Source of the DNA: Acidimicrobiia bacterium | GTDB taxonomy: Bacteria > Actinomycetota > Acidimicrobiia > Spongiisociales > UBA11373 | Direction: 5' to 3' | Length of the DNA stretch: 64,000 nucleotides | NCBI GenBank assembly: GCA_040878325.1 | Contig: JBBDMM010000001.1 | Span: 1-64,000 of the forward strand | Shown: in pieces, positions 1-21,896 of the stretch | Layout of the letters: each line of letters begins with the position of its first letter | Position numbering within the stretch: the first letter of the stretch is position 1 | Position numbers and translations under genes: made by a program | Notes under the pieces: model-generated | Databases searched by the model: none | Seen by the model: the letters and a program-made list of their open reading frames with translations, nothing else | What the model was told of the DNA's origin: nothing

Positions 1-19
1 ACCCTTGGGACCTGCTACG

Positions 20-55
<36 letters not shown>

Positions 56-594
56 GCCTTGCCGTCGATATGGACTCTTGGGCAAGATAAGCCTGTTATC
101 CCCGGGGTACCTTTTAGCCGATGAGCCACGGCGCTTCCACATGCCGCCGTGGGATCACTAGGCCCTGCTTTCGCATCTGCTCGACTTGTAGGTCTCGCAG
201 TTAAGCTCCCTTGTGCCCTTACACTCAACGTCCGATTGCCAACCGGACTGAGGGAACCTTTGGGCGCCTCCGTTACATTTTAGGAGGCCACCACCCCAGT
301 GAAACTGCCCGCCAGGCAATGTCCCTGATCCGGATAACGGATCGAGGTTAGAAGCCCAGAATGTCAAGGGTGGTATTTCAAGGTTGACTCCACGAAAGCT
401 AGCGCCTCCGCTTCCAAGTCTCCCACCTATCCTACACATAACACACCAAACTCCAATGCCAAGCTGCAGTAAAGGTCCCGGGGTCTTTCCGTCCTGTCGC
501 AGGTAGTGAGCATCTTCACTCACATTGCAATTTCGCCGAGTCCGTGGTTGAGACAGCGCCCAAGTCGTTGCGCCATTCGTGCAGGTCGGAACTT

Positions 595-1352
595 CATCGA
601 TTTCCTCTGTTTCCAGAGGCGACAGACTATGCCTTCATCTCAGAACGATTGCTCAATATCACTCATCGAGTAGCGACGAACCCCACTGGGGTTCATGGCG
701 CCCGCCAGGCGGGCGATCATCTTGAGCCCGTTGGGCTCGAGGTGCGCTTCCTCCAGCATCAGCATGCAGACTTGCTCGAGGAGCTCCACATCTGCTTGCT
801 TCGCTGACACGAGTGGCCAACTATCGAAATGCGGAAGAATACGACTCACGATCTGTGAGACGCTCCTGCATTCCCACTTGATCGTTTGATCGCTCGTATC
901 GGGCCGGATCGAGCCGCAAGCGAAGTACGAGTGGATGAGATCCACGACTTGCCGGCGGTCTTCGTTCTGGCTGATCGATACGCTCGGTCGGACCTCCCAC
1001 CCAACCCTCAGACGAGGTTTTGGGGAGATCGACACCGAGAAGCATCCTTCGCCATCGAAGTAACCACTGATGTATGACGGAACATCGAGTCGACTGTTCT
1101 GAGAGCCCGCGTGTTGCCCCGGCGGTAGATTTGCCATCCCCGCAACATATGTCGCGGGTGTGACAGTCACCGGAGCCTCTCCCTTTCGGGATCAGTCGTT
1201 ACGGGGCCATGCCGAGTCATCTCGACAGAGGGCTTCCCACGGCATCGCCCGCCGACTCTCGCCTCGTCCTTGACACGAGGCAGTCGGTGAGGGTTTCGCC
1301 GTTATGAGCGGGGTTGTTGTGCGAGGTCGCCCTCGCACCGGGCAATTCAATT
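595..1352 (-). mobile_element. Group I intron at 23S position L1951 (IA-type core), 758 nt, carrying a homing endonuclease gene
   Basis: Interrupts CCTTGTCGGGT|AAGTTCCGACC. The 5' exon ends in U and the intron ends in G (...ATCGATG). P1 is CGGGUAAU/AUUGCCCG with a U.G pair at the splice site. Core elements: P AACGGCGAAAC, Q GATGCCGTG, R CGTAAACGACTG, S GAAGGCATAGTCT, P3 CCCGC/GCGGG, and P8 TCTCAGAA/TTCTGAGA enclosing most of the ORF. Confidence 0.95.
640..1170 (-). CDS. Single-motif LAGLIDADG homing endonuclease (intron-encoded)
   Basis: YISGYFDGEGCFSVSI motif followed by the SVSISQ...FACGSI...W pattern of I-CreI-like enzymes. Start is GTG 1170 (GGAGAGG upstream) or ATG 1137. Confidence 0.93.
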   Translation of the reverse strand: MTVTPATYVAGMANLPPGQHAGSQNSRLDVPSYISGYFDGEGCFSVSISPKPRLRVGWEVRPSVSISQNEDRRQVVDLIHSYFACGSIRPDTSDQTIKWECRSVSQIVSRILPHFDSWPLVSAKQADVELLEQVCMLMLEEAHLEPNGLKMIARLAGAMNPSGVRRYSMSDIEQSF

Positions 1353-1380
1353 ACCCGACAAGGAATTTCGCTACCTTAGG

Positions 1381-1660
1381 CACGTTGTTACTCCCCTCTC
1401 CGAAGAGAGAGTGGCGAGGACATTTCTGCCTCACTCCCTATGTCGCCATAGGGGTCGGACTGTCTCATCGCCGCTGATGCGGCGCCTGGCGTACAGTCTC
1501 TGAGGATCCCTTTACGGTTTCCTGCTGATTGTCCGCACCGGACGGATTGTCACTGCTCATGGTCGCACCCTATTGGCCGGGTGCGACACGAACTAGTACC
1601 GCCGGATGCTCGGATGTTCCAGCATATAGCCAGGTTTACCAACCGCCAGTTGGTATTCCA
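1381..1660 (-). mobile_element. ORF-less group I intron at 23S position L1923 (IB-type core), 280 nt
   Basis: Interrupts AACTATAACCGT|CCTAAGGTAG. The exon ends in U and the intron ends in G (...AACGTG). P1 is AACCGU/GCGGUU. Core elements: P ATGCTGGAAC, Q AATCAGCAGG, R TCAGAGACTGTA, S GATGAGACAGTCC, P3 CCTGGC/GCCAGG. Confidence 0.95.
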
Positions 1661-2616
1661 ACGGTTATAGTTACCGCCGCCGTTTACCGGGGCTTAAATT
1701 CAGAGCTTCGCCACCGAAGTGGCTAACCCCTCCTCTTGACCTTCCGGCACCGGGCAGGCGTCACAGCGTATACGTCGTCTTGCGACTTAGCACGCTGCTG
1801 TGTTTTTAGTAAACAGTCGCTTGGGCCTAGTCACTGCGGCCCCCTCCGGCTCGAGGACGCAAAGTCCTCTAACCGTACTGGGGCGCCCCTTATCCCTAGG
1901 TTACGGGGCAATTTTGCCGAGTTCCTTAACCACGGTTATCTCGCGCGCCTTAGTATTCTCTACTTGTCCACCTGTGTCGGTTTGGGGTACGGGCACCTCG
2001 TGCACTCGCTAGAAGGTTTTCTCGACGGCTTGGGCGTTCAGCAGCTTCTCCTAAAAGCGGATCGGCATCGCACCTCAGGCTTTTTGTGAGATCCGGATTT
2101 ACCTGGACCTCGCCCTACATGCTTACCCCGGGTCAACCAACGCCCGGGTCTGCTTACCCTTCCGTGTCACTCCATCGCTGGCCTACTACCAGCTGGGTCG
2201 GTAGGCCCCGAAGGGCTTTCCTTAGCAAACTGGATTCGGCCTTGGCGCGCACGTGGTGGTACCGGAATATCAACCGGTTATCCATCGACTACGCCTCACG
2301 GCCTCGCCTTAGGCCCCGACTAACCCTGGGCGGACGAGCCTTCCCCAGGAAACCTTGGACTTTCGGCGGGGGAGATTCTCACTCCCCTCTCGCTACTCAT
2401 GCCGACATTCTCACTCCAGCGGCCTCCACGGCTGGCTCACGCCGCCGCTTCGCTGGCCGCTCGACGCTCTCCTACCGAATCCACCGCCTGGACTCGATCC
2501 CGAAGGACCGAGTCGAGCTTGATGGATTCCCGCAGCTTCGGTGCTGGACTTGAGCCCCGTTACATTTTCCGCGCAGAACCACTCGACCAGTGAGCTGTTA
2601 CGCACTCTTTCAAGGA

Positions 2617-2647
<31 letters not shown>

Positions 2648-3217
2648 TTATGCAATTCCACATCGTTTCCCACTTAGTCCAGACTTAGGGACCTTAGCTG
2701 GCGATCTGGGCTGTTTCCCTTTTGACCAAAGAAGCTCATCCCCCATGGTCTGACTGCCGCGCTGTGGCACGTTGGAATTCGGAGTTTGAGTGGGGTCGGT
2801 AAGCTTGTAGGCCCCCTTACCCAATCAGTGCTCTACCTCCAACGTGGAACACGCGACGCTAGCCCTAAAGCTATTTCGGAGAGAACCAGCTATCGCCGGG
2901 TTTGCTTGGCCTTTCACCCCTATCCACAGGTCATCCCCCAAGTTTTCAACCTTGGTGGGTTCGGGCCTCCACGAGGTCTTACCCTCGATTCACCCTGCCC
3001 ATGGATAGATCACCCGGCTTCGGGTCTAGAGCACGCGACTAGACGCCCTATTAAGACTCGCTTTCGCTGCGGCTACGGCTAACGCCTTAACCTTGCCACG
3101 TACTGCTAACTCGTCGGCTCATTCTTCAAAAGGCAGGCCGTCAGATCACCGAAGTGATCCTCCGACTGCTTGTAGGTAAGCGGTTTCAGGTTCTATTTCA
3201 CTCCCCTCACCGGGGTG

Positions 3218-3259
<42 letters not shown>

Positions 3260-3506
3260 TGGGGAGTACTTAGCCTTACGAGGTGGTCCTCGCAGATTCA
3301 CACGGGATTTCACGGGCCCCGTGCTACTTGGGAACTCCATTAGGAGCTCAGTGCGTTTTCGCCTACAGGGCTGTTACCTCCTATGGCCTACCTTTCCAGG
3401 TATGTTCGGCTAACGCCTGAGTTTGTAACTCCTCGACGGACCCGGTGGTCCGTCAGATGGCTCCCACAACCCCAGCACGACAACGGCACCGGCCTATCAC
3501 GCCGTG

Positions 3507-3548
<42 letters not shown>

Positions 3549-3784
3549 GTCGCTATTGCTTTCCTCTCCTCGGGGTACTGAGATGTTTCAATTCCCCCGG
3601 TTACCTCTTCCGGTCCTATATATTCAGACCGGAGTGACTGGGCATTACCCCAGACGGGTTTCCCCATTCGGAAATCCCCGGATCAAAACCTGCTTGGCGG
3701 TTCACCGGGGCTTATCGCAGCCTGCTACGTCCTTCATCGGCTCCCAGCGCCAAGGCATCCACCGCAAACCCTTAGTAGCTTGAA

Positions 3785-4001
3785 TCATGTGAATACAAGA
3801 CGCTTGTGCTCGCTATGCAGTTCTCAAGGTGCCAGAGTGAATCAGTGCCAGGTGGCTCTGACTCCCTCACGACTAAACAGTGTGCCCACGCCGGCGATCG
3901 ATCCCATCGGGCCGAAGCCACGATCGGATCTCAACGATTCGAAATGAATAGCCAGTTCATTGACTAGAAGCTCGAGGTCACTAGGACCTCAATTGCTCCT
4001 T
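3785..4001 (-). other. 16S-23S ITS (~217 nt) without tRNA; contains a boxA-like element and one arm of the 16S processing stem
   Basis: GCACCTTGAGAACTG is boxA-like. GGCACACTGTTTAGT (minus strand, ~3872-3886) is complementary to leader ACTAAACAGTGTGCC (~5736-5750). No cloverleaf was seen. Confidence 0.75.
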
Positions 4002-5532
<1,531 letters not shown>

Positions 5533-5820
5533 AAGATCCGGGTCCGAAGACCCAGAATCCTCAGTTGTTCGAGTTTGGTTGTGGGTGTCTGGCCAAACCG
5601 TTCACCCACGTCTGACATCAGATCGTTGTCTCTGACATCCGGTGCCGGATCGCTCCAGCACCTTCTACTCGAGTACGGCCTCCCCAGACGCGACGGGACG
5701 AACCCACCTTGTCGGGAGAGGCAAAACTGGCTTTTGGCACACTGTTTAGTTGTCAAGGAGCCAGACACTCCGAAGTCCCAGGGCACGCGCGCTCGTCGCT
5801 GAGTCCCGGGAGGGACCAGA

Positions 5821-5959: not shown

Positions 5960-6682
5960 GTGACTGAATCAACCGTTGGGCCAGCCTGGAGACGGGTCGC
6001 CGCGATCGTCGCGGTGGGGATGGCGCTCTGGGTGATCATCATCACCCTCGCGTCTGGAGAGATCATCCCGCCGGTCATCATCATCGGCGTCGCCTTCATC
6101 GTCGCCTGGGGGTTCACCCGGTGGCGCCCCAACCGGATCACCTTCGGCGTCTTCGGTGGGATCGGACTCGCAACGATCCTGACCAGCATCCCCTATGTCG
6201 TGGACGATCTCAGCCACCCGGAATCTGCGATCGGGTTCAACATCACCCTCATGACCCTGCTGGCTTCCATCCTGGCGATACTCGTGGCGGTCGCGGCGTG
6301 GCGTCCCCTGTCCGCTCGGGCCGCTTCGCTCTCTTGGATCGGCGCCGCCATCATCCTGCTCGCAGGCACCGTGGTCAGCGTCGTGCTCGCCCTCGGCCTC
6401 GAGGACGATCCGACGGCGGCCGGTGATATCCGGCTCGCGGCCGACGTCGCCGAATGGGTGCCCGATTCACTCAGCGCTACCGCCGGCACTGTTGCGGTCT
6501 ACGTAGACAACAAGGATTCAATCCGGCATACCTTCGCGATCGAAGCGCTCGATCTCGAACTCGAGTTGCCGGCCTCTACCGGCCGCCGCATCGAGTTCAA
6601 CGCCCCGGCAGGGTCGTACGAGTTCATCTGCACCGTGCCGGGCCATGAGAACATGGTCGGCACCCTCGTCGTCGGCGGCTGA
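5960..6682 (+). CDS. Membrane protein (about 5 TM helices) with a C-terminal cupredoxin (type 1 copper) domain
   Basis: Hydrophobic N-terminal segments; C-terminal N..HTF...YEFICTVPGHENM supplies His/Cys/His/Met ligands. GTG start after GGAGGGAG. Confidence 0.8.
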   Translation: MTESTVGPAWRRVAAIVAVGMALWVIIITLASGEIIPPVIIIGVAFIVAWGFTRWRPNRITFGVFGGIGLATILTSIPYVVDDLSHPESAIGFNITLMTLLASILAILVAVAAWRPLSARAASLSWIGAAIILLAGTVVSVVLALGLEDDPTAAGDIRLAADVAEWVPDSLSATAGTVAVYVDNKDSIRHTFAIEALDLELELPASTGRRIEFNAPAGSYEFICTVPGHENMVGTLVVGG

Positions 6683-6722
6683 CCCTCGGGGGGCCCACCA
6701 CCGTCGCTACCCTGCGGCGTCG

Positions 6723-8003
6723 ATGGCCCACCCCCTAGACACACTCGCCGAGCGCGGCTTCGTCCAGGACGTCACCGACGTCGAGGGCCTGCGCGGCCTC
6801 CTGGCCGACGAGAAGGTCACCTTCTACTACGGGGCCGATCCCTCTGGATCGTCGCTCCACATCGGGAACCTGCTCGGACTGATGGCCATGGCCTGGCTGC
6901 AACGCGCGGGGCATCGCCCCATTGCCCTAGTAGGAGGTGGCACCGGCCGGATCGGTGACCCCTCCGGGCGCGACGGGGAGAGAGAACTGCTGGCCGACGA
7001 CCAGATCGCGGCCAACGTCGAGCGGCTCCGCGATCAGATGAGCCGAATCGTCGATCTCTCCGATCCCGAGTCGGGCTTGCTCATCGACAACGACCAATGG
7101 TTGCGAGGGCTCCGACTCGTCGACTTTCTCAGAGACGTCGGCAAGCATTTTTCGGTCAACCAGATGATCGCCCGTGAGTCGGTGCGACGACGCCTCGAGG
7201 AGCGCGAGCACGGCATCTCGTTCACCGAGTTCTCGTACCAGCTGCTGCAGTCCTTCGACTTTGCCCACCTGTATGAAATCGAGGGGTGTCGCCTGCAGAT
7301 AGGCGGCTCCGACCAGTGGGGCAACATCACCGCCGGGGTCGAGCTGACCCGGCGCCTTCACGGTGCGAAGGTGTTCGGCCTCGTCTGGCCGCTGGTCGAA
7401 CGATCCGACGGCAAGAAGTTCGCCAAGTCGTCGGGCGAAGCGGTGTGGCTTGCCGCCGACGAGACCAGCCCTTATGCCTACTACCAATGGTTCCTCAACG
7501 TCCCCGACGCCGACGTCGGCAGGTTCCTCCGGCTGTACACGTTCCTGCCGCTCGACGAGATCGCCGAACTGGAGGCGGCGACCTTCGAGGATGCGGCGGC
7601 CCGCCCCGCGCAGCGTTCACTGGCCACCGAGGCCACCCGGATAATGCACGGCGACAAGGGCCTCGCCGAGGCGCAACGCGCTTCCGACGCGCTCTTTGGC
7701 GACCGTCCCTTCGCCGACCTCGACGAACGAACCCTTTCCGACGCCTTCGACTCGGCTCCTTCGACGGAGTTGGCAGCGTCGGCTCTCAAAGAGGGCGTGG
7801 GGGTTCTCGAGGCCCTGGTCGCAGCCGGCGCGGCGGCGTCGAACGGGGAGGCCAAGCGCCTCGTCACTCAAGGTGGCGTCCAGATCAACAACGCCATCGT
7901 CGACGATCCGGCCCGTGCGATCGGCCCGAAGGATCTCCTTGGTGATGGCACGGTCGTGCTGCGCGTCGGCAAGAAGAGGTACTTCCTGCTGAGATTCCGC
8001 TAG
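6723..8003 (+). CDS. tyrS: Tyrosine--tRNA ligase
   Basis: YYGADP...LHIGN, IGGSDQWGNI, KFAKS (KMSKS-like) and a C-terminal S4 domain. Confidence 0.97.
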   Translation: MAHPLDTLAERGFVQDVTDVEGLRGLLADEKVTFYYGADPSGSSLHIGNLLGLMAMAWLQRAGHRPIALVGGGTGRIGDPSGRDGERELLADDQIAANVERLRDQMSRIVDLSDPESGLLIDNDQWLRGLRLVDFLRDVGKHFSVNQMIARESVRRRLEEREHGISFTEFSYQLLQSFDFAHLYEIEGCRLQIGGSDQWGNITAGVELTRRLHGAKVFGLVWPLVERSDGKKFAKSSGEAVWLAADETSPYAYYQWFLNVPDADVGRFLRLYTFLPLDEIAELEAATFEDAAARPAQRSLATEATRIMHGDKGLAEAQRASDALFGDRPFADLDERTLSDAFDSAPSTELAASALKEGVGVLEALVAAGAAASNGEAKRLVTQGGVQINNAIVDDPARAIGPKDLLGDGTVVLRVGKKRYFLLRFR

Positions 8004-10378
8004 CCGGCGGGCTGCACCCAGATGGTCGCCCTCCCGGTGACCGGCTCTCCCGGCCCCGGCATCTGTGCCCACACTCGATACGGCTCCACCGAGGCGTTCG
8101 GGTCGGCCACGACGATCACGGTCACTTCTTGCCCGACCGCGGTCAACCGCTCGGTTGCGTCCGAACGATGGCGACCGAGTACGTCCGGGGCGATCGTGCC
8201 GGGTTCGGGCCCCGCCACGACCAGTTCCACCTTCGATCCGATCGGAAGCTCCGACCCCGGGGCAGGGAATTGCCCGATCACGGTGCCCGGGACTTGCGGC
8301 ACGTCGGCCCAGAGCAGCGAGATCGTGTATCCGGCGGCCTCGAGCACCGATACCGCATCAACGATCGTGTAGGTGCCGACTCCAGGCACCGTTCCGTCGG
8401 CGAGGATTGCCAGACCCTCGGGGTTGTGGATCGGGCAAACGATTCGGGGCACGGACGACGCCTGAAGCTGGATATCGGCGACATTCGACCGGGGACAGAG
8501 GGGACCGGCGAGGAACCCGGTGGTCACATCGATCTTTACGGTCACCATGTCGTTGCTGCCCGCTTCGGGGGCGTCTGAATACCCGACGCCGCCAAGCGCG
8601 GCGATGCCAAAACGCGACCAGATCTGCGCCGGCCAGGTTCCTCCGGTGACTGTGAAGGGTGTGTTGGGGGCGACCATCGGTTTGTTGCCCTCGGCGAAGC
8701 CAACCCAAACTGCGGCGACCAACTCGGGCGTGTACCCGACGAACCAGGCATCGTGGGTGGCTTCGGTCGTGCCCGACTTGCCGGCAATCGGCCGACCGAT
8801 CTTTGCTTGCTGACCGGTCCCCCGACGAACCGTCTCGGTGAGCGTCGCCGTCACCTGCTGGGCCACGAATTCGTCCAGAACCCGCTCGAAGGTGGGGAGA
8901 TGCTCGTAGATCACCCGGCCATCGCGATCCTCGATTCGGCTCACGAGCACCGGGTCCACCTTGATGCCATCGTTGGCGAAGGTCCCGTAGGCGGCCGCCA
9001 TGTCGAACACGGTCACCTCTTCGGTGCCGAGAACAATCGACGGCACTGCGGCCAGGTCGGCGGTGATGCCCATCTCCTTGGCCAGAGCGACCACACGGTC
9101 GGCCCCGATCAGGTGAATCAGGTGGGCGTAGGGCACATTGACCGAGAAGACGGTCGCCTCCAGCAGCGAGAGACCCGGGAAGTAGGCGTCCTTGTGGTTA
9201 CGCACCGTCCACACCTCGTCGGCGGTACGGATGTAGGCGGCCCGTCCGCCGGGCCAGGTGCTGTCGAGCTCGATCCCGTACTCGAGGGCGGCGGCCAGGG
9301 TGAACGGCTTGAAGGCAGAGCCGGGCTGCCGCCTCCCCTGCGTTGCAAGGTTGAACTGACCGATGGGGTCGGAGGCGTCGTAGAAGCCGTCCCCGCCGAC
9401 GATGGCGAGGACATGGCCGTTGCGGGGATCGATGGCAACCAGTGCCGCCGCCGGGCCGTCATCTGGAAGCACCGAGGCGATCGCCGCTTCCGCCGCCATC
9501 TGAACGGCAGGGTCGATGGTCGTGTAGATCGTCAGCCCGCCGGTGGTGAGCGCCTCGTACCGGTCGTCGGCGGTCGCCCCGAGCGCCGGGTTCTCGAGCA
9601 GTCTTCGGCGCACCTCGTCGGTGAAGTAGGGGAACCTCATCAGGTCGGATACGCCCCGAACGGCCAGGTCGAGAGGCTCCGCGGATGCCTCGGTGGCAGC
9701 CGACTGGTCGATCCACCCGAGGCCGACCATCTCGGCGAGCACCAGATCACGCCGCGCCATCGCCTCGACTGGATGCTCATAAGGGTTCAGATCCGACGGG
9801 GCGAGGATCAGGCCGGCGAGCAACGACGACTGGCCGAGGCTCAATGATCCCACCGGGAGTCCGAAGTACCGCTTGGCGGCGGCGCTCACCCCGTACGCCC
9901 CTTCACCGAGATAGATGGTGTTGAGGTAACGCTCGAGGATCTCCTCCTTGGTGAGGGTGGTCTCGAGCTGGAGGGCGAGGCCGATCTCTTCAGCCTTGCG
10001 CTCGAGGGTGAGATCATCCGAGAGGAGCACGTTCTTGACGTACTGCTGGGTGATCGTCGATCCGCCTTCGACCACGGCCCCCGCCTCGATATTCTCCCGG
10101 GTGGCCCGCGCCACCGCTCTCACATCGACCCCGTTGTGGATCCAGAAGCGGCGGTCTTCGATGGCGACGACGGCATCGACCAGATGTTTGGGCAGATCGG
10201 AGTACGCAACGAGCTGACGGTCTTCCTCTGCGTGCCACTCGGCCAATACCGAGCCATCGGCCGCAAGGACCGTCGTGGTGAGGCCGCCCGCTCCAATCCC
10301 CGGATCCTCGATTGGTGTCACCGAGCAGGCAGTGGCGATCAGCGCGATCCCCAGCGCACCCACCCCGAGGCGAGGCAT
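8000..10378 (-). CDS. Class A penicillin-binding protein (transglycosylase/transpeptidase) with C-terminal PASTA domains
   Basis: EDRRFWIHNG, GGSTITQQYVKN, SAFK (SxxK), SVN and KSGT motifs; two PASTA-like repeats; lipobox-like ATAC. Confidence 0.92.
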   Translation of the reverse strand: MPRLGVGALGIALIATACSVTPIEDPGIGAGGLTTTVLAADGSVLAEWHAEEDRQLVAYSDLPKHLVDAVVAIEDRRFWIHNGVDVRAVARATRENIEAGAVVEGGSTITQQYVKNVLLSDDLTLERKAEEIGLALQLETTLTKEEILERYLNTIYLGEGAYGVSAAAKRYFGLPVGSLSLGQSSLLAGLILAPSDLNPYEHPVEAMARRDLVLAEMVGLGWIDQSAATEASAEPLDLAVRGVSDLMRFPYFTDEVRRRLLENPALGATADDRYEALTTGGLTIYTTIDPAVQMAAEAAIASVLPDDGPAAALVAIDPRNGHVLAIVGGDGFYDASDPIGQFNLATQGRRQPGSAFKPFTLAAALEYGIELDSTWPGGRAAYIRTADEVWTVRNHKDAYFPGLSLLEATVFSVNVPYAHLIHLIGADRVVALAKEMGITADLAAVPSIVLGTEEVTVFDMAAAYGTFANDGIKVDPVLVSRIEDRDGRVIYEHLPTFERVLDEFVAQQVTATLTETVRRGTGQQAKIGRPIAGKSGTTEATHDAWFVGYTPELVAAVWVGFAEGNKPMVAPNTPFTVTGGTWPAQIWSRFGIAALGGVGYSDAPEAGSNDMVTVKIDVTTGFLAGPLCPRSNVADIQLQASSVPRIVCPIHNPEGLAILADGTVPGVGTYTIVDAVSVLEAAGYTISLLWADVPQVPGTVIGQFPAPGSELPIGSKVELVVAGPEPGTIAPDVLGRHRSDATERLTAVGQEVTVIVVADPNASVEPYRVWAQMPGPGEPVTGRATIWVQPAG

Positions 10379-21678: not shown

Positions 21679-21729
21679 CGCTCGTCTCCCGTCCGGGGCA
21701 CGCGGGCGCGAGCGCGCGACACGTACCCC

Positions 21730-21846
21730 TCTTCTCTCATCCGGACTGTCACCGTCGGCGCCGGTATTCCATCGGCTCGGCCCTCGCGGTTGGCAAGGGT
21801 TCGCGGGCTTTCACCGCCGGTAGGGACTTTCACCCTGCCCCGAAGA
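21730..21846 (-). promoter_or_regulatory. FMN riboswitch (RFN element)
   Basis: TCTTCGGGGCAGGGTGAAAGTCCCTACCGGCGGT...AGCCCGCGA...CCGACGGTGACAGTCCGGATGAGAGAAGA directly upstream of ribD. CGCTCG/CGAGCG could sequester the RBS. A -10 TACACT lies at ~21861-21866. Confidence 0.97.
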
Positions 21847-21896
21847 GGGGGCGCGACAGAAGTGTAATGGTCGATGAACCCGGCTTCGCCGGGTTC

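What the first reader, a model, noticed from the sequence alone, without database searches (positions are those of the whole stretch)
595..1660. Twin group I introns in 23S rRNA (L1923 and L1951) flanking a 28-nt micro-exon
Seen: two structurally different group I introns, each with a U.G pair in P1, a terminal G and P/Q/R/S cores. They split the H69-H71 region, leaving only CCTAAGGTAGCGAAATTCCTTGTCGGGT (1353-1380) between them. Known: bacterial 23S group I introns are sporadic. Coxiella burnetii has an L1917+L1951 pair, and L1923 is the I-CeuI intron site of chlorophyte chloroplasts. Inference: an L1923+L1951 pair in an actinobacterium is unusual and implies two independent acquisitions. Both must splice correctly to form intersubunit bridge helices, with a risk of skipping the micro-exon.
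Basis: partly seen in the sequence, partly recalled or inferred. Interest (0 to 1): 0.85.

Follow-up and report, generated by a model that had tools for sequence, protein, structure and literature searches.

The report
Two self-splicing introns in 23S rRNA
The only 23S ribosomal RNA gene of this uncultured Acidimicrobiia bacterium is split by two genuine group I (self-splicing type) introns just 28 bases apart, with a third further on; the layout is real, but it is common among its relatives and already known from other microbes.

Summary
The 23S gene lies on the minus strand. A 280-nt insert (1381-1660) follows E. coli U1923. A 758-nt insert (595-1352) follows U1951. The exon between them is 28 nt (1353-1380).

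Both inserts are group I introns of different build. Intron A scores 55.2 bits on Rfam RF00028 (threshold 50), lacks P2 and has no ORF. Intron B has P2 and P7.1/P7.2 helices, and carries a single-motif LAGLIDADG gene in P8. The window copy of B gets no Rfam match. An ORF-less relative scores 45.6 bits, just under threshold. Covariation supports both folds (A: 25 of 88 pairs compensatory; B: 48 of 90).

The same L1923+L1951 pair occurs in 8 of 25 genomes carrying an L1951 intron, and two more also have L1931 (exons of 8 and 20 nt). Intron-A-like cores occur in 63 of 401 genomes sampled from the class and 57 of 401 from the phylum.

Coxiella, CPR bacteria and archaea show equivalent layouts in print, and this scan noted the same pair before in a chlamydia-like genome. 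Splicing itself is inferred, not shown. I found no paper on rRNA group I introns in Actinomycetota.

The parts
1661..3656 (-). 23S rRNA exon 1 (E. coli 1-1923), ending ...GGUAACUAUAACCGU
   Evidence: RF02541 match. Contiguous alignment to the intron-free G008 23S up to E. coli copy position 1928, which is standard 1923.
1381..1660 (-). Intron A: ORF-less group I intron at L1923, 280 nt. It has no P2, an extended P5a-c domain, and P9, P9.1 and P9.2 (IB4-like).
   Evidence: RF00028 55.2 bits against a threshold of 50, E 2.7e-11; the model put its P1/P2 part wrongly into the exon. RNAalifold recovers P1, P3-P6, P8-P9.2 on 7 ORF-less homologues. With P7 added, 96.5% of 603 cells pair and 25 of 88 pairs have compensatory changes, against 32-44% in slid controls.
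1642..1649 (-). Internal guide sequence of intron A (P1 3' strand). It pairs with exon ACCGU plus intron UGG; U1923 pairs with G.
   Evidence: The exon C/G change at the third pair is matched by a G/C change in the guide in 3 of 7 sequences (pair 8/115).
1458..1498 (-). P7 (GACUGU / ACAGUC) of intron A enclosing P3' and P8; this is the guanosine-binding helix.
   Evidence: helix 9: 5 of 6 pairs kept in all 7 sequences, with one G-C to A-U compensatory change. Coordinates.
1353..1380 (-). 28-nt micro-exon (E. coli 1924-1951: the end of H69, H70 and the 5' half of H71)
   Evidence: 100% match to the intron-free reference and exact motif positions. The helix names are from established knowledge of 23S structure (recalled).
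595..1352 (-). Intron B: group I intron at L1951, 758 nt, with P2, P5a/b, P6a/b, P7.1/P7.2 (IA3-like) and an endonuclease gene in P8
   Evidence: No RF00028 match in the window even at E<=10. The ORF-less homologue in G050 matches the full model at 45.6 bits, E 1.2e-10, below the threshold of 50. On 25 family members, 89.6% of 2086 cells pair and 48 of 90 pairs have compensatory changes, against 37-42% and 16-24 pairs in slid controls. The alignment is shown.
1339..1345 (-). Internal guide sequence of intron B (UUGCCCG). It pairs with exon CGGGU plus intron AA; U1951 pairs with G.
   Evidence: P1 at 1351-1357 with 1339-1345. In L046 the exon G-to-A change is matched by a C-to-U change in the guide.
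640..1137 (-). Single-motif LAGLIDADG homing-endonuclease gene (165 aa from the conserved AUG; 176 aa if read from the GTG at 1170). Its start overlaps P3' and the P8 5' strand, and its stop lies in the P8 3' strand.
   Evidence: ORF list. PF00961 E 6.9e-22. A conserved ATG/GTG-GCA-AAT-CT start region across 25 introns. dN/dS 0.20 against G001. PDB relatives are LAGLIDADG endonucleases.
625..629 (-). P7 3' strand of intron B (UAGUC), pairing with GACUG at 1193-1197
   Evidence: 100% paired in 25 sequences but invariant, so there is no covariation to count. It matches the RF00028 consensus ...AUAGUC.
1..594 (-). 23S exon 3 (E. coli 1952 to about 2546). The gene runs off the contig and most likely continues on contig C12 of the same genome.
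   Evidence: There is an exact 16-nt overlap between the start of C1 and the start of C12, and the order matches G001.

Best explanation
Two unrelated group I introns sit 28 nt apart in the single 23S rRNA gene, and a third most likely lies at L2593 on the adjoining contig. Both are transcribed within the pre-23S RNA. Each then removes itself by the standard two-step guanosine-initiated transesterification. Intron A's guide sequence holds exon ...AACCGU (U1923.G). Intron B's guide holds ...UCGGGU (U1951.G) at the far end of the micro-exon. The two ribozymes therefore grip different exon pieces and can act independently. Ligation restores H69-H71. Intron B is or recently was mobile at the DNA level through its LAGLIDADG homing endonuclease. 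Intron A has no endonuclease gene where its relatives carry one in the P6 loop. It persists by vertical descent, and possibly by co-conversion when its neighbour homes. Shown here: the positions, the folds, the covariation, the intact and constrained ORF, and the recurrence of the layout. Inferred: splicing, exon ligation and homing.
For: Positions and splice-site rules: the 5' exons end in U and the introns end in G. This holds in 15 of 15 L1923 rows and 26 of 26 L1951 rows, one genome being present twice in each count. Covariance model: intron A scores 55.2 bits, its G001 homologue 70.2 and the G050 homologue 65.7. The ORF-less L1951 intron of G050 scores 45.6 bits, E 1.2e-10, over the full model. 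Covariation: including compensatory exon/guide changes in P1 of both introns. Endonuclease: Pfam LAGLIDADG_1, dN/dS 0.20 against G001, 32 related loci. Splicing must be needed or tolerated. The genome has one 23S copy. G050 (2 contigs, 4 introns) and G060 (1 contig, 1 intron) also have one 23S copy each. The inserts lie in helices that, by established knowledge, form the subunit interface. The two guide sequences are specific to their own exons, by direct reading. Precedent: Coxiella's L1917/L1951 introns are reported as spliced from the precursor (PMC4990558, passage seen).
Against: There is no direct RNA evidence. The one read-laying run showed joints that skip each insert in RNA runs X19 and X20. 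The intron-B skip also stands in DNA run X2, and every joint side is under 30 nt, so these joints may come from intron-free 23S of other organisms. RF00028 finds nothing in the window copy of intron B, and its best homologue is below the curated threshold. I drew intron B's structure myself from this window and the alignment, which favours it over the slid controls. Two of its helices are weak across the family: P7.2a 62% and P8 73% of cells paired. P10 pairing for intron A is weak by eye. The endonuclease ORF overlaps P3' and P8, so translation and folding could conflict. An L1931 intron in Simkania is titled 'unspliced' in the literature (reference list seen).
Confidence: 0.85

Rival explanations
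1. The inserts are group I-derived, but one or both no longer self-splice. They would then be retained in the mature 23S as expansion segments, or cut out by host RNases without ligation to give a fragmented 23S, as with bacterial intervening sequences.
For: No RNA evidence for ligated exons that can be assigned to this organism. The window copy of intron B has no RF00028 match. Unligated IVS excision is common in bacterial 23S (PMC4990558 passages). The Simkania L1931 intron is titled 'unspliced' (reference lists).
Against: All catalytic-core helices are kept by compensatory changes across 7 and 25 homologues. A terminal G and the U.G pair are kept in every L1923 and L1951 intron examined. 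Together these point to selection on ribozyme function. A 28-nt piece held only by tertiary contacts between two breaks in H69-H71 seems unlikely to work (inference).
Confidence: 0.08
2. Splicing happens but depends on helpers. The LAGLIDADG protein would act as a maturase, or a host RNA helicase or chaperone would be needed, rather than autonomous self-splicing.
For: The ORF is under purifying selection (dN/dS 0.20) even though the intron appears fixed in this genus, so a function beyond homing would explain its retention. A paper title cites a potential role for an RNA helicase in Coxiella intron splicing (reference list). LAGLIDADG maturases are known in organelles (recalled).
Against: ORF-less L1951 introns exist in G005 and G050, so the RNA can do without the protein in cis. 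Nothing here tests protein dependence.
Confidence: 0.05
3. Assembly or binning artefact: the intron-bearing rRNA stretch is chimeric, or belongs to another organism in the sample.
For: The rRNA operon sits at a contig end in a metagenome-assembled genome, and the 23S is split over two contigs.
Against: The contig carries 16S, the spacer and 23S joined to 60 kb of genome. The same layout is seen in G001 with 96% operon identity and in 7 further genomes. Contigs of the independent run X2 cover 467-821 and 827-1380.
Confidence: 0.02

Closest known systems
Coxiella burnetii 23S rRNA twin introns Cbu.L1917 + Cbu.L1951 flanking a 34-bp exon (Raghavan et al. 2007, seen only as a title in the reference list of PMC11270868; Haugen et al. 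2007 PMC1995217, table passage; PMC4990558 passages)
   Same: Two different group I introns in the H69-H71 region of the sole 23S gene, with a tiny exon between them. The downstream one sits at L1951 and carries a single-motif LAGLIDADG gene: 720 nt and 157 aa in Coxiella, 758 nt and 165-176 aa here. Exon skipping has been studied there (title of Hicks et al. 2011).
   Different: The upstream site is L1923, not L1917, so the exon is 28 nt rather than 34 nt. Both introns here end in the canonical G, whereas the Coxiella paper's title says one element lacks it. The host is a free-living environmental actinobacterium. A third intron at L2593 is likely. No Coxiella sequence was compared here.
rRNA insertion sequences / group I introns of CPR (Patescibacteria) bacteria (Tsurumaki et al. 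2024, PMC11270868; passages seen)
   Same: LAGLIDADG_1-bearing group I introns concentrated at 23S positions 1917, 1931, 1952, 2593 and 2604. ORF-bearing and ORF-less forms occur at the same site, and genes carry multiple introns. Outside Acidimicrobiia-like loci, the nearest relatives of this window's endonuclease are in CPR genomes (43-50% identity).
   Different: The host phylum is Actinomycetota, with ordinary genome sizes of 2-5 Mb. Position 1923 is not among the LAGLIDADG hot spots named in the passages I saw. That paper treats rRNA group I introns outside CPR as limited to a few species.
Archaeal IB4 and IA3 group I introns in LSU rRNA (Nawrocki, Jones & Eddy 2018, PMC6125680; Table 1 passage seen)
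   Same: IB4 introns at LSU/1923, LSU/1931 and SSU/1498, and IA3 at LSU/2593. These are the same sites and, by architecture, the same two intron types as in this clade. One archaeal contig lists LSU/1923 and LSU/1931 introns 8 nt apart, like G005 and G050 here.
   Different: Archaeal hosts, and no L1951 entry in the passages seen. I could not test subgroup membership of the window's introns because no subgroup models are on hand.
Cyanobacterial and Thermotoga 23S introns (Haugen et al. 2007, PMC1995217; passages seen)
   Same: [quoted passage not shown] The ORFs extend from a peripheral loop into the ribozyme core, as the ORF here overlaps P3' and P8.
   Different: No L1923, and no L1951 in those hosts. 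Those authors called such multi-intron genes surprising and rare.
Chloroplast L1923 intron of Chlamydomonas eugametos encoding I-CeuI
   Same: The same insertion site. Relatives' L1923 introns carry LAGLIDADG_1 genes.
   Different: The window's L1923 intron has no ORF. No sequence comparison with I-CeuI was made, and it was not among the listed PDB matches of the L1951 protein.

Membership tests
Group I catalytic intron (Rfam RF00028) - intron A, 1381-1660 | Covariance-model score at or above the curated threshold | tested here: met
   55.2 bits against 50, E 2.7e-11. Homologues score 70.2 and 65.7 bits.
Group I catalytic intron - intron A | P1 formed by the 5' exon and an internal guide, with a U.G pair at the splice site; terminal G | tested here: met
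   U1923.G in 6 of 7 sequences; the exception is a badly aligned row with an internal duplication. There is a compensatory exon/guide change. All 15 L1923 rows end in G.
Group I catalytic intron - intron A | P3-P8 core with the P3/P7 pseudoknot and P4-P6 domain | tested here: met
   RNAalifold plus a hand-added P7: 96.5% of cells paired, 25 of 88 pairs compensatory, slid controls 32-44%.
Group I catalytic intron - intron B, 595-1352 | Covariance-model score at or above the curated threshold | tested here: not met
   No match in the window at E<=10; the 498-nt ORF in P8 probably defeats the model. The ORF-less G050 homologue scores 45.6 bits, below 50, with E 1.2e-10 over the full-length model.
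Group I catalytic intron - intron B | P1 with U.G, terminal G, and P3-P9 core kept by covariation | tested here: met
   16 helices, 90 pairs, 89.6% of 2086 cells paired, 48 pairs compensatory, slid controls 37-42%. 26 of 26 rows end in G. I proposed the structure from this window and the alignment.
Group I catalytic intron - both | Guanosine-dependent self-splicing with exon ligation | not testable with these tools
   The read laying was uninformative. This needs an in vitro assay or strain-specific RNA reads.
Subgroup IB4 (intron A) and IA3 (intron B) | Match to subgroup-specific models. Architecture: IB4 lacks P2; IA3 has P7.1/P7.2. | tested here: inconclusive
   Architecture fits. Intron A has no P2. 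Intron B has the helices I labelled P7.1 and P7.2, at 94% paired. No subgroup models are available. The site-to-subgroup link comes from PMC6125680 and from an earlier scan note.
LAGLIDADG_1 homing endonuclease (PF00961), single-motif homodimer type | Pfam match above threshold, one LAGLIDADG motif, about 160-180 aa | tested here: met
   78.7 bits against 23.1. One motif, YISGYFDGEGCF. It matches each half of two-domain I-OnuI-family enzymes and a 170-aa homodimer-size entry, 5gkk.
LAGLIDADG_1 homing endonuclease | Cleaves the intron-less L1951 target DNA | not testable with these tools
   Only indirect evidence: the ORF is intact, and dN/dS is 0.18-0.83 in 9 pairs, 0.20 against G001.
Twin-intron / micro-exon arrangement of the Coxiella type | Two group I introns in H69-H71 of 23S separated by a few tens of nt, the downstream one at L1951 with a LAGLIDADG gene | tested here: met
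   It differs in the upstream site: L1923 rather than L1917.

The most novel reading that the evidence does not exclude
Uncultured Actinomycetota (Acidimicrobiia and at least some sister classes) may be a large, so far unreported reservoir of rRNA group I introns outside the CPR. About one species-level genome in seven of those sampled carries IB4-like introns. This is a lower bound, because many assemblies lack rRNA. Single-copy rRNA operons hold up to four or five introns (L1917/L1923/L1931/L1951/L2593/L2604, and one 16S site), with exons as short as 8 nt. Within this setting, endonuclease-less introns such as the window's L1923 intron may persist by hitch-hiking: being co-converted when the endonuclease of the neighbour 28 bp away triggers repair.
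Probability: 0.45. Interest if true: 0.5.

Novelty: new member of a known kind. Interest (0 to 1): 0.3.

Why it matters
For this locus alone, little: it is a clean new example of a layout known from Coxiella, CPR bacteria and archaea.

The wider pattern is more useful. Reviews and a 2024 survey treat rRNA group I introns outside the CPR as confined to a few species (PMC11270868 passages; PMC3984707 has no mention of Actinobacteria). Here, IB4-like cores turn up in 63 of 401 genomes sampled from the class and 57 of 401 from the phylum.

If that holds, three things follow:
- Free-living bacteria with ordinary genomes routinely depend on ribozyme splicing to make ribosomes.
- Tools that extract 23S or full rRNA operons, and long amplicons, will mis-size or miss these lineages.
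- The clade offers many natural ORF-plus and ORF-minus pairs at fixed sites for studying the homing cycle.

Tried and rejected
1. RNA evidence for splicing. One run search and one read laying were allowed. Joints skipping 758 nt and 280 nt appear in RNA runs X19 and X20. Their sides are at most 28 nt, the 758-nt skip also stands in DNA run X2, and the flanks are among the most conserved rRNA stretches. They cannot be assigned to this organism, so I count them neither for nor against. RNA contigs over intron B have depth 2-3 against hundreds on the exons, but exon depth sums all organisms. In X18 the bin 1489-1612 (intron A core) has depth 859, with no listed piece to explain it.

2. RF00028 on the window's intron B: no match even at E<=10. 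I turned to ORF-less homologues instead.

3. (Rfam on four small loci) failed with an internal error. I repeated the question on other loci.

4. My first guess for P3' of intron B (GCGGGG at about 1134-1139) was wrong. The family alignment and the G050 model alignment place P3' at 1106-1110.

5. P10 pairing. For intron A, RNAalifold proposed a 4-bp helix between GGUA after the guide and UG|CC at the 3' splice site. This is not in the classical position for P10, so I left it out of the counted structure.

6. Recent horizontal transfer of the L2593 region between G000 and G001. I briefly suspected this from the 98% identity. I rejected it once the whole operon proved 96% identical, with exons about 100%.

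7. Spread of one intron between sites within a genome. Rejected: cores group by site, not by host. L1923, L1931 and L2604 are each one side of a branch, and 21 of 29 rows were kept, namely those with both core halves.

8. Labels 'Acidobacteriota' (L041, L044) and 'Gemmatimonadota' (L051) as evidence for the pair in other phyla. Rejected: their 23S exons are 87-90% identical to the Acidimicrobiia reference, like the other Acidimicrobiia loci.
Full report
WHAT IS THERE

Rfam places a bacterial 23S rRNA on the minus strand at window 1-3656. Its 3' end is cut by the contig start. A 16S follows at 4004-5532. The window is the first 64 kb of contig C1 of a 2.21-Mb, 18-contig genome that is 98.9% complete, and this is its only 23S copy. 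Earlier scan notes call the genome Acidimicrobiia. The named public records with the closest endonuclease relatives are mostly titled Acidimicrobiia or Actinomycetota.

The LSU model alignment opens two large insertions around GUAGCGAAAUUCCUUGUCGGGUAA. I mapped the exons onto an intron-free 23S from a relative (G008) and onto an E. coli rrl copy. This gives:
- exon 1 down to 1661;
- a 28-nt exon at 1353-1380;
- exon 3 from 594 to 1.

The inserts are therefore 1381-1660 (280 nt, "intron A") and 595-1352 (758 nt, "intron B"). The E. coli copy used is 2909 nt, 5 nt longer than the standard upstream of this region. With that offset, fixed from recalled landmarks, the sites are U1923|C1924 and U1951|A1952.

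INTRON A

RF00028 matches at 55.2 bits against a threshold of 50, E 2.7e-11. The model pushed its P1/P2 part wrongly into the exon.

I aligned seven ORF-less L1923 introns: G000, G001, G050, G033, L044, L047 and L053. RNAalifold recovered P1, P3, P4, P5 with a long P5a-c extension, P6, P8, P9, P9.1 and P9.2. After I added the P7 pseudoknot by hand:
- 96.5% of 603 cells form standard pairs;
- 25 of 88 pairs show compensatory changes;
- 0 of 500 shuffles reach these values for four of the five measures (19 of 500 for the count of further pair types);
- partners slid by 1-3 columns give only 32-44% pairing.

P1 joins exon ACCGU and the first intron bases to the guide at 1642-1649, with U1923 paired to G. 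Where relatives have G instead of C in the exon, the guide has the matching change (3 of 7 sequences).

There is no P2 and no ORF. In relatives with 743-773-nt L1923 introns, a LAGLIDADG_1 gene sits between the two halves of the core, at what is a 5-nt P6 loop in the window.

INTRON B

The window copy gives no RF00028 match even at E<=10. This is probably because about 500 nt of ORF sit inside P8. The 266-nt ORF-less L1951 intron of G050 shares sequence blocks with intron B. It matches the full model at 45.6 bits, E 1.2e-10, just under the threshold.

I aligned 25 L1951 introns from 25 genomes. From the window and that model alignment I drew 16 helices: P1, P2, P3, P4, P5, P5a, P5b, P6, P6a, P6b, P7, P7.1, P7.2, P7.2a, P8 and P9. 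The counts are:
- 89.6% of 2086 cells pair;
- 48 of 90 pairs have compensatory changes;
- slid controls give 37-42% pairing and 16-24 such pairs.

The structure is mine, which favours it. P7.2a (62% paired) and P8 (73%) are the weak helices.

P1 pairs exon CGGGU plus AA with the guide at 1339-1345, with U1951 paired to G. One relative with A for G in the exon has the matching guide change. All 26 L1951 rows and all 15 L1923 rows end in G. In each count one genome appears twice, as L018 and L039.

THE ORF

The ORF at 640-1170 (176 aa) matches Pfam LAGLIDADG_1 at E 6.9e-22, with a single motif YISGYFDGEGCF. A conserved ATG/GTG-GCA-AAT-CT block suggests the real start is the AUG at 1137, giving 165 aa. 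On that reading the coding sequence runs through P3' and the 5' strand of P8, and its stop lies in the 3' strand of P8. Haugen et al. noted the same overlap of ORF and core for cyanobacterial introns (PMC1995217, passage).

Against congeneric G001, dN/dS is 0.20 with dS 0.92. Across nine pairs it ranges from 0.18 to 0.83. The protein has therefore been under constraint. In the PDB, the nearest relatives are halves of two-domain I-OnuI-family enzymes (best E 1.1e-35) and a 170-aa entry.

HOW COMMON IS IT?

Congeneric G001 has the same L1923 (284 nt) and L1951 (757 nt) introns 28 nt apart, plus a 721-nt intron at L2593. The two operons are 96% identical over 5071 nt, with exons near 100%, intron A at 91% and intron B at 80%. 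The pair therefore predates the split of these two species.

The 25 genomes with an L1951 intron divide as follows:

| Layout in the H69-H71 region | Genomes |
|---|---|
| L1923 + L1951 | 8 (G000, G001, G048, L040, L044, L047, L051, L053) |
| L1923 + L1931 + L1951, with exons of 8 and 20 nt | 2 (G005, G050) |
| L1931 + L1951 | 2 |
| L1951 only | 11 |
| Upstream side unresolved | 2 |

Twenty of these 25 were found through the L1951 endonuclease, so the sample is biased towards L1951 carriers.

All of them have 23S exons 82-93% identical to the Acidimicrobiia reference. That includes three records labelled Acidobacteriota or Gemmatimonadota. CPR loci score 65-74%.

Other relatives carry L1923 alone, L1931 alone, or L1931 plus L2604.

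Intron-A-like cores were found in:
- 20 of 61 near relatives (the tally includes one unpublished genome, G040);
- 63 of 401 genomes sampled from the class, or 56 of 314 of good quality;
- 57 of 401 sampled from the phylum, 52 of them outside the class (the tally includes unpublished G570, G594 and G544).

These are lower bounds. Of five relatives without a match that I checked, two had no 23S assembled, one had only 170 nt of it, and two (G008, G015) have an intron-free gene.

Four loci from other classes carry introns at about L1917, L1931, L1951 and probably L2604. One of them has three introns.

A tree of the shared core groups introns by insertion site, not by host. L1923, L1931 and L2604 each form one side of a branch, and 21 of 29 rows were kept, those with both core halves. 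These are site-specific lineages, and A and B are unrelated types.

DOES IT SPLICE?

This is not shown. The single read-laying run gave junction-skipping contigs, but they cannot be assigned to this organism (see Tried and rejected). The case for splicing is indirect:
- The catalytic cores are kept by compensation.
- The splice-site rules are kept in every copy.
- There is a single 23S copy here, and also in near-closed relatives with one to four introns (G060 in 1 contig, G050 in 2 contigs).
- The inserts lie in H69-H71, which form inter-subunit bridges (established knowledge).
- Coxiella's L1917/L1951 introns are reported as spliced (PMC4990558).

The two guide sequences read different exon words: AACCGU for A and UCGGGU for B. 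Each ribozyme can therefore find its own site. Skipping of the micro-exon, with U1923 attacking intron B's 3' splice site, remains possible, as studied in Coxiella (title only).

COMPARISON WITH WHAT IS KNOWN

The closest match is Coxiella's twin-intron 23S, with a 34-nt exon and the L1951 intron carrying a LAGLIDADG gene. CPR bacteria have LAGLIDADG_1 introns at 1917, 1931, 1952, 2593 and 2604 (PMC11270868). Archaea have IB4 introns at LSU/1923, LSU/1931 and SSU/1498 and IA3 introns at LSU/2593, including a 1923/1931 pair 8 nt apart (PMC6125680).

Intron A's architecture (no P2) fits IB4, and intron B's (P7.1/P7.2) fits IA3. I could not run subgroup models.

This scan noted the same L1923+L1951 pair before, with a 28-nt exon, in a chlamydia-like genome (e1-2139826). 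It has also noted several CPR cases.

Searches for papers on group I introns in rRNA of Acidimicrobiia, Actinobacteria or Actinomycetota found nothing relevant. A search for "L1923" with "intron" found nothing relevant. The 2014 review of bacterial group I introns does not mention Actinobacteria. Subscription papers and supplements (for example Tables S2-S3 of PMC11270868) were not seen and could hold such cases.

VERDICT

This is a new member of a known kind, and it is ordinary within its own clade. The modest interest lies in the clade-wide prevalence, which I could not find in print.

Noticed in passing
G000 contig C12 (L071:1-1262), adjoining window position 1: The 23S gene most likely continues on contig C12. 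There is an exact 16-nt overlap with the window's first bases, and the order matches G001. C12:64-784 is a 721-nt insert after U2593 with a 172-aa LAGLIDADG_1 ORF. It is 96% identical to G001's, and the flanking exon and 5S are 100% identical. The gene would then have three introns. RF00028 gave no match there at E<=1.
   Followed up: partly
L019 (G005) 3860-5753 and 8143-8945, minus strand: A same-family genome has three introns within 28 nt of 23S: L1923 (744 nt), L1931 (708 nt) and L1951 (414 nt, ORF-less). The exons between them are 8 and 20 nt. It also has an insert of about 803 nt with an intron-A-like core near the 3' end of its 16S, after ...GAAGUCGUAA. Bacterial 16S group I introns are described as rare outside CPR and giant sulfur bacteria.
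   Followed up: partly
L020 (G050) 6027-8760: A nearly closed genome (2 contigs) with a single 23S copy carries four introns: L1923 (252 nt), L1931 (793 nt), L1951 (266 nt) and L2604 (742 nt).
   Followed up: partly
L074-L077 (G507, G704, G518, G463; other classes of the phylum): The 23S genes of other classes in the phylum carry introns at about L1917, L1931, L1951 and probably L2604. G518 has three in the H69-H71 region.
   Followed up: partly
L053:928-1297: This ORF-less L1923 intron (370 nt) starts with a partial duplicate of its own 5' part, followed by a stretch resembling the upstream 23S exon (GCCCCAGUAAACGGCGGCCGUAA...). It may be a scar of an aberrant recombination or homing event.
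   Followed up: no
L041, L044, L051 (named public records): Contigs binned as Acidobacteriota or Gemmatimonadota carry 23S exons 87-90% identical to the Acidimicrobiia reference. The rRNA contigs are probably mis-binned or mislabelled.
   Followed up: partly
window 1489-1612 in RNA run X18: The core of intron A has summed contig depth 859 in one metatranscriptome. Intron B shows depth 2-3, and depth over this stretch is 0 in runs X19 and X2. No listed piece explains it. It could be stable excised intron RNA or a relative's intron.
   Followed up: no
window 21725-21851 (-): FMN riboswitch, 107.5 bits. Ordinary.
   Followed up: no
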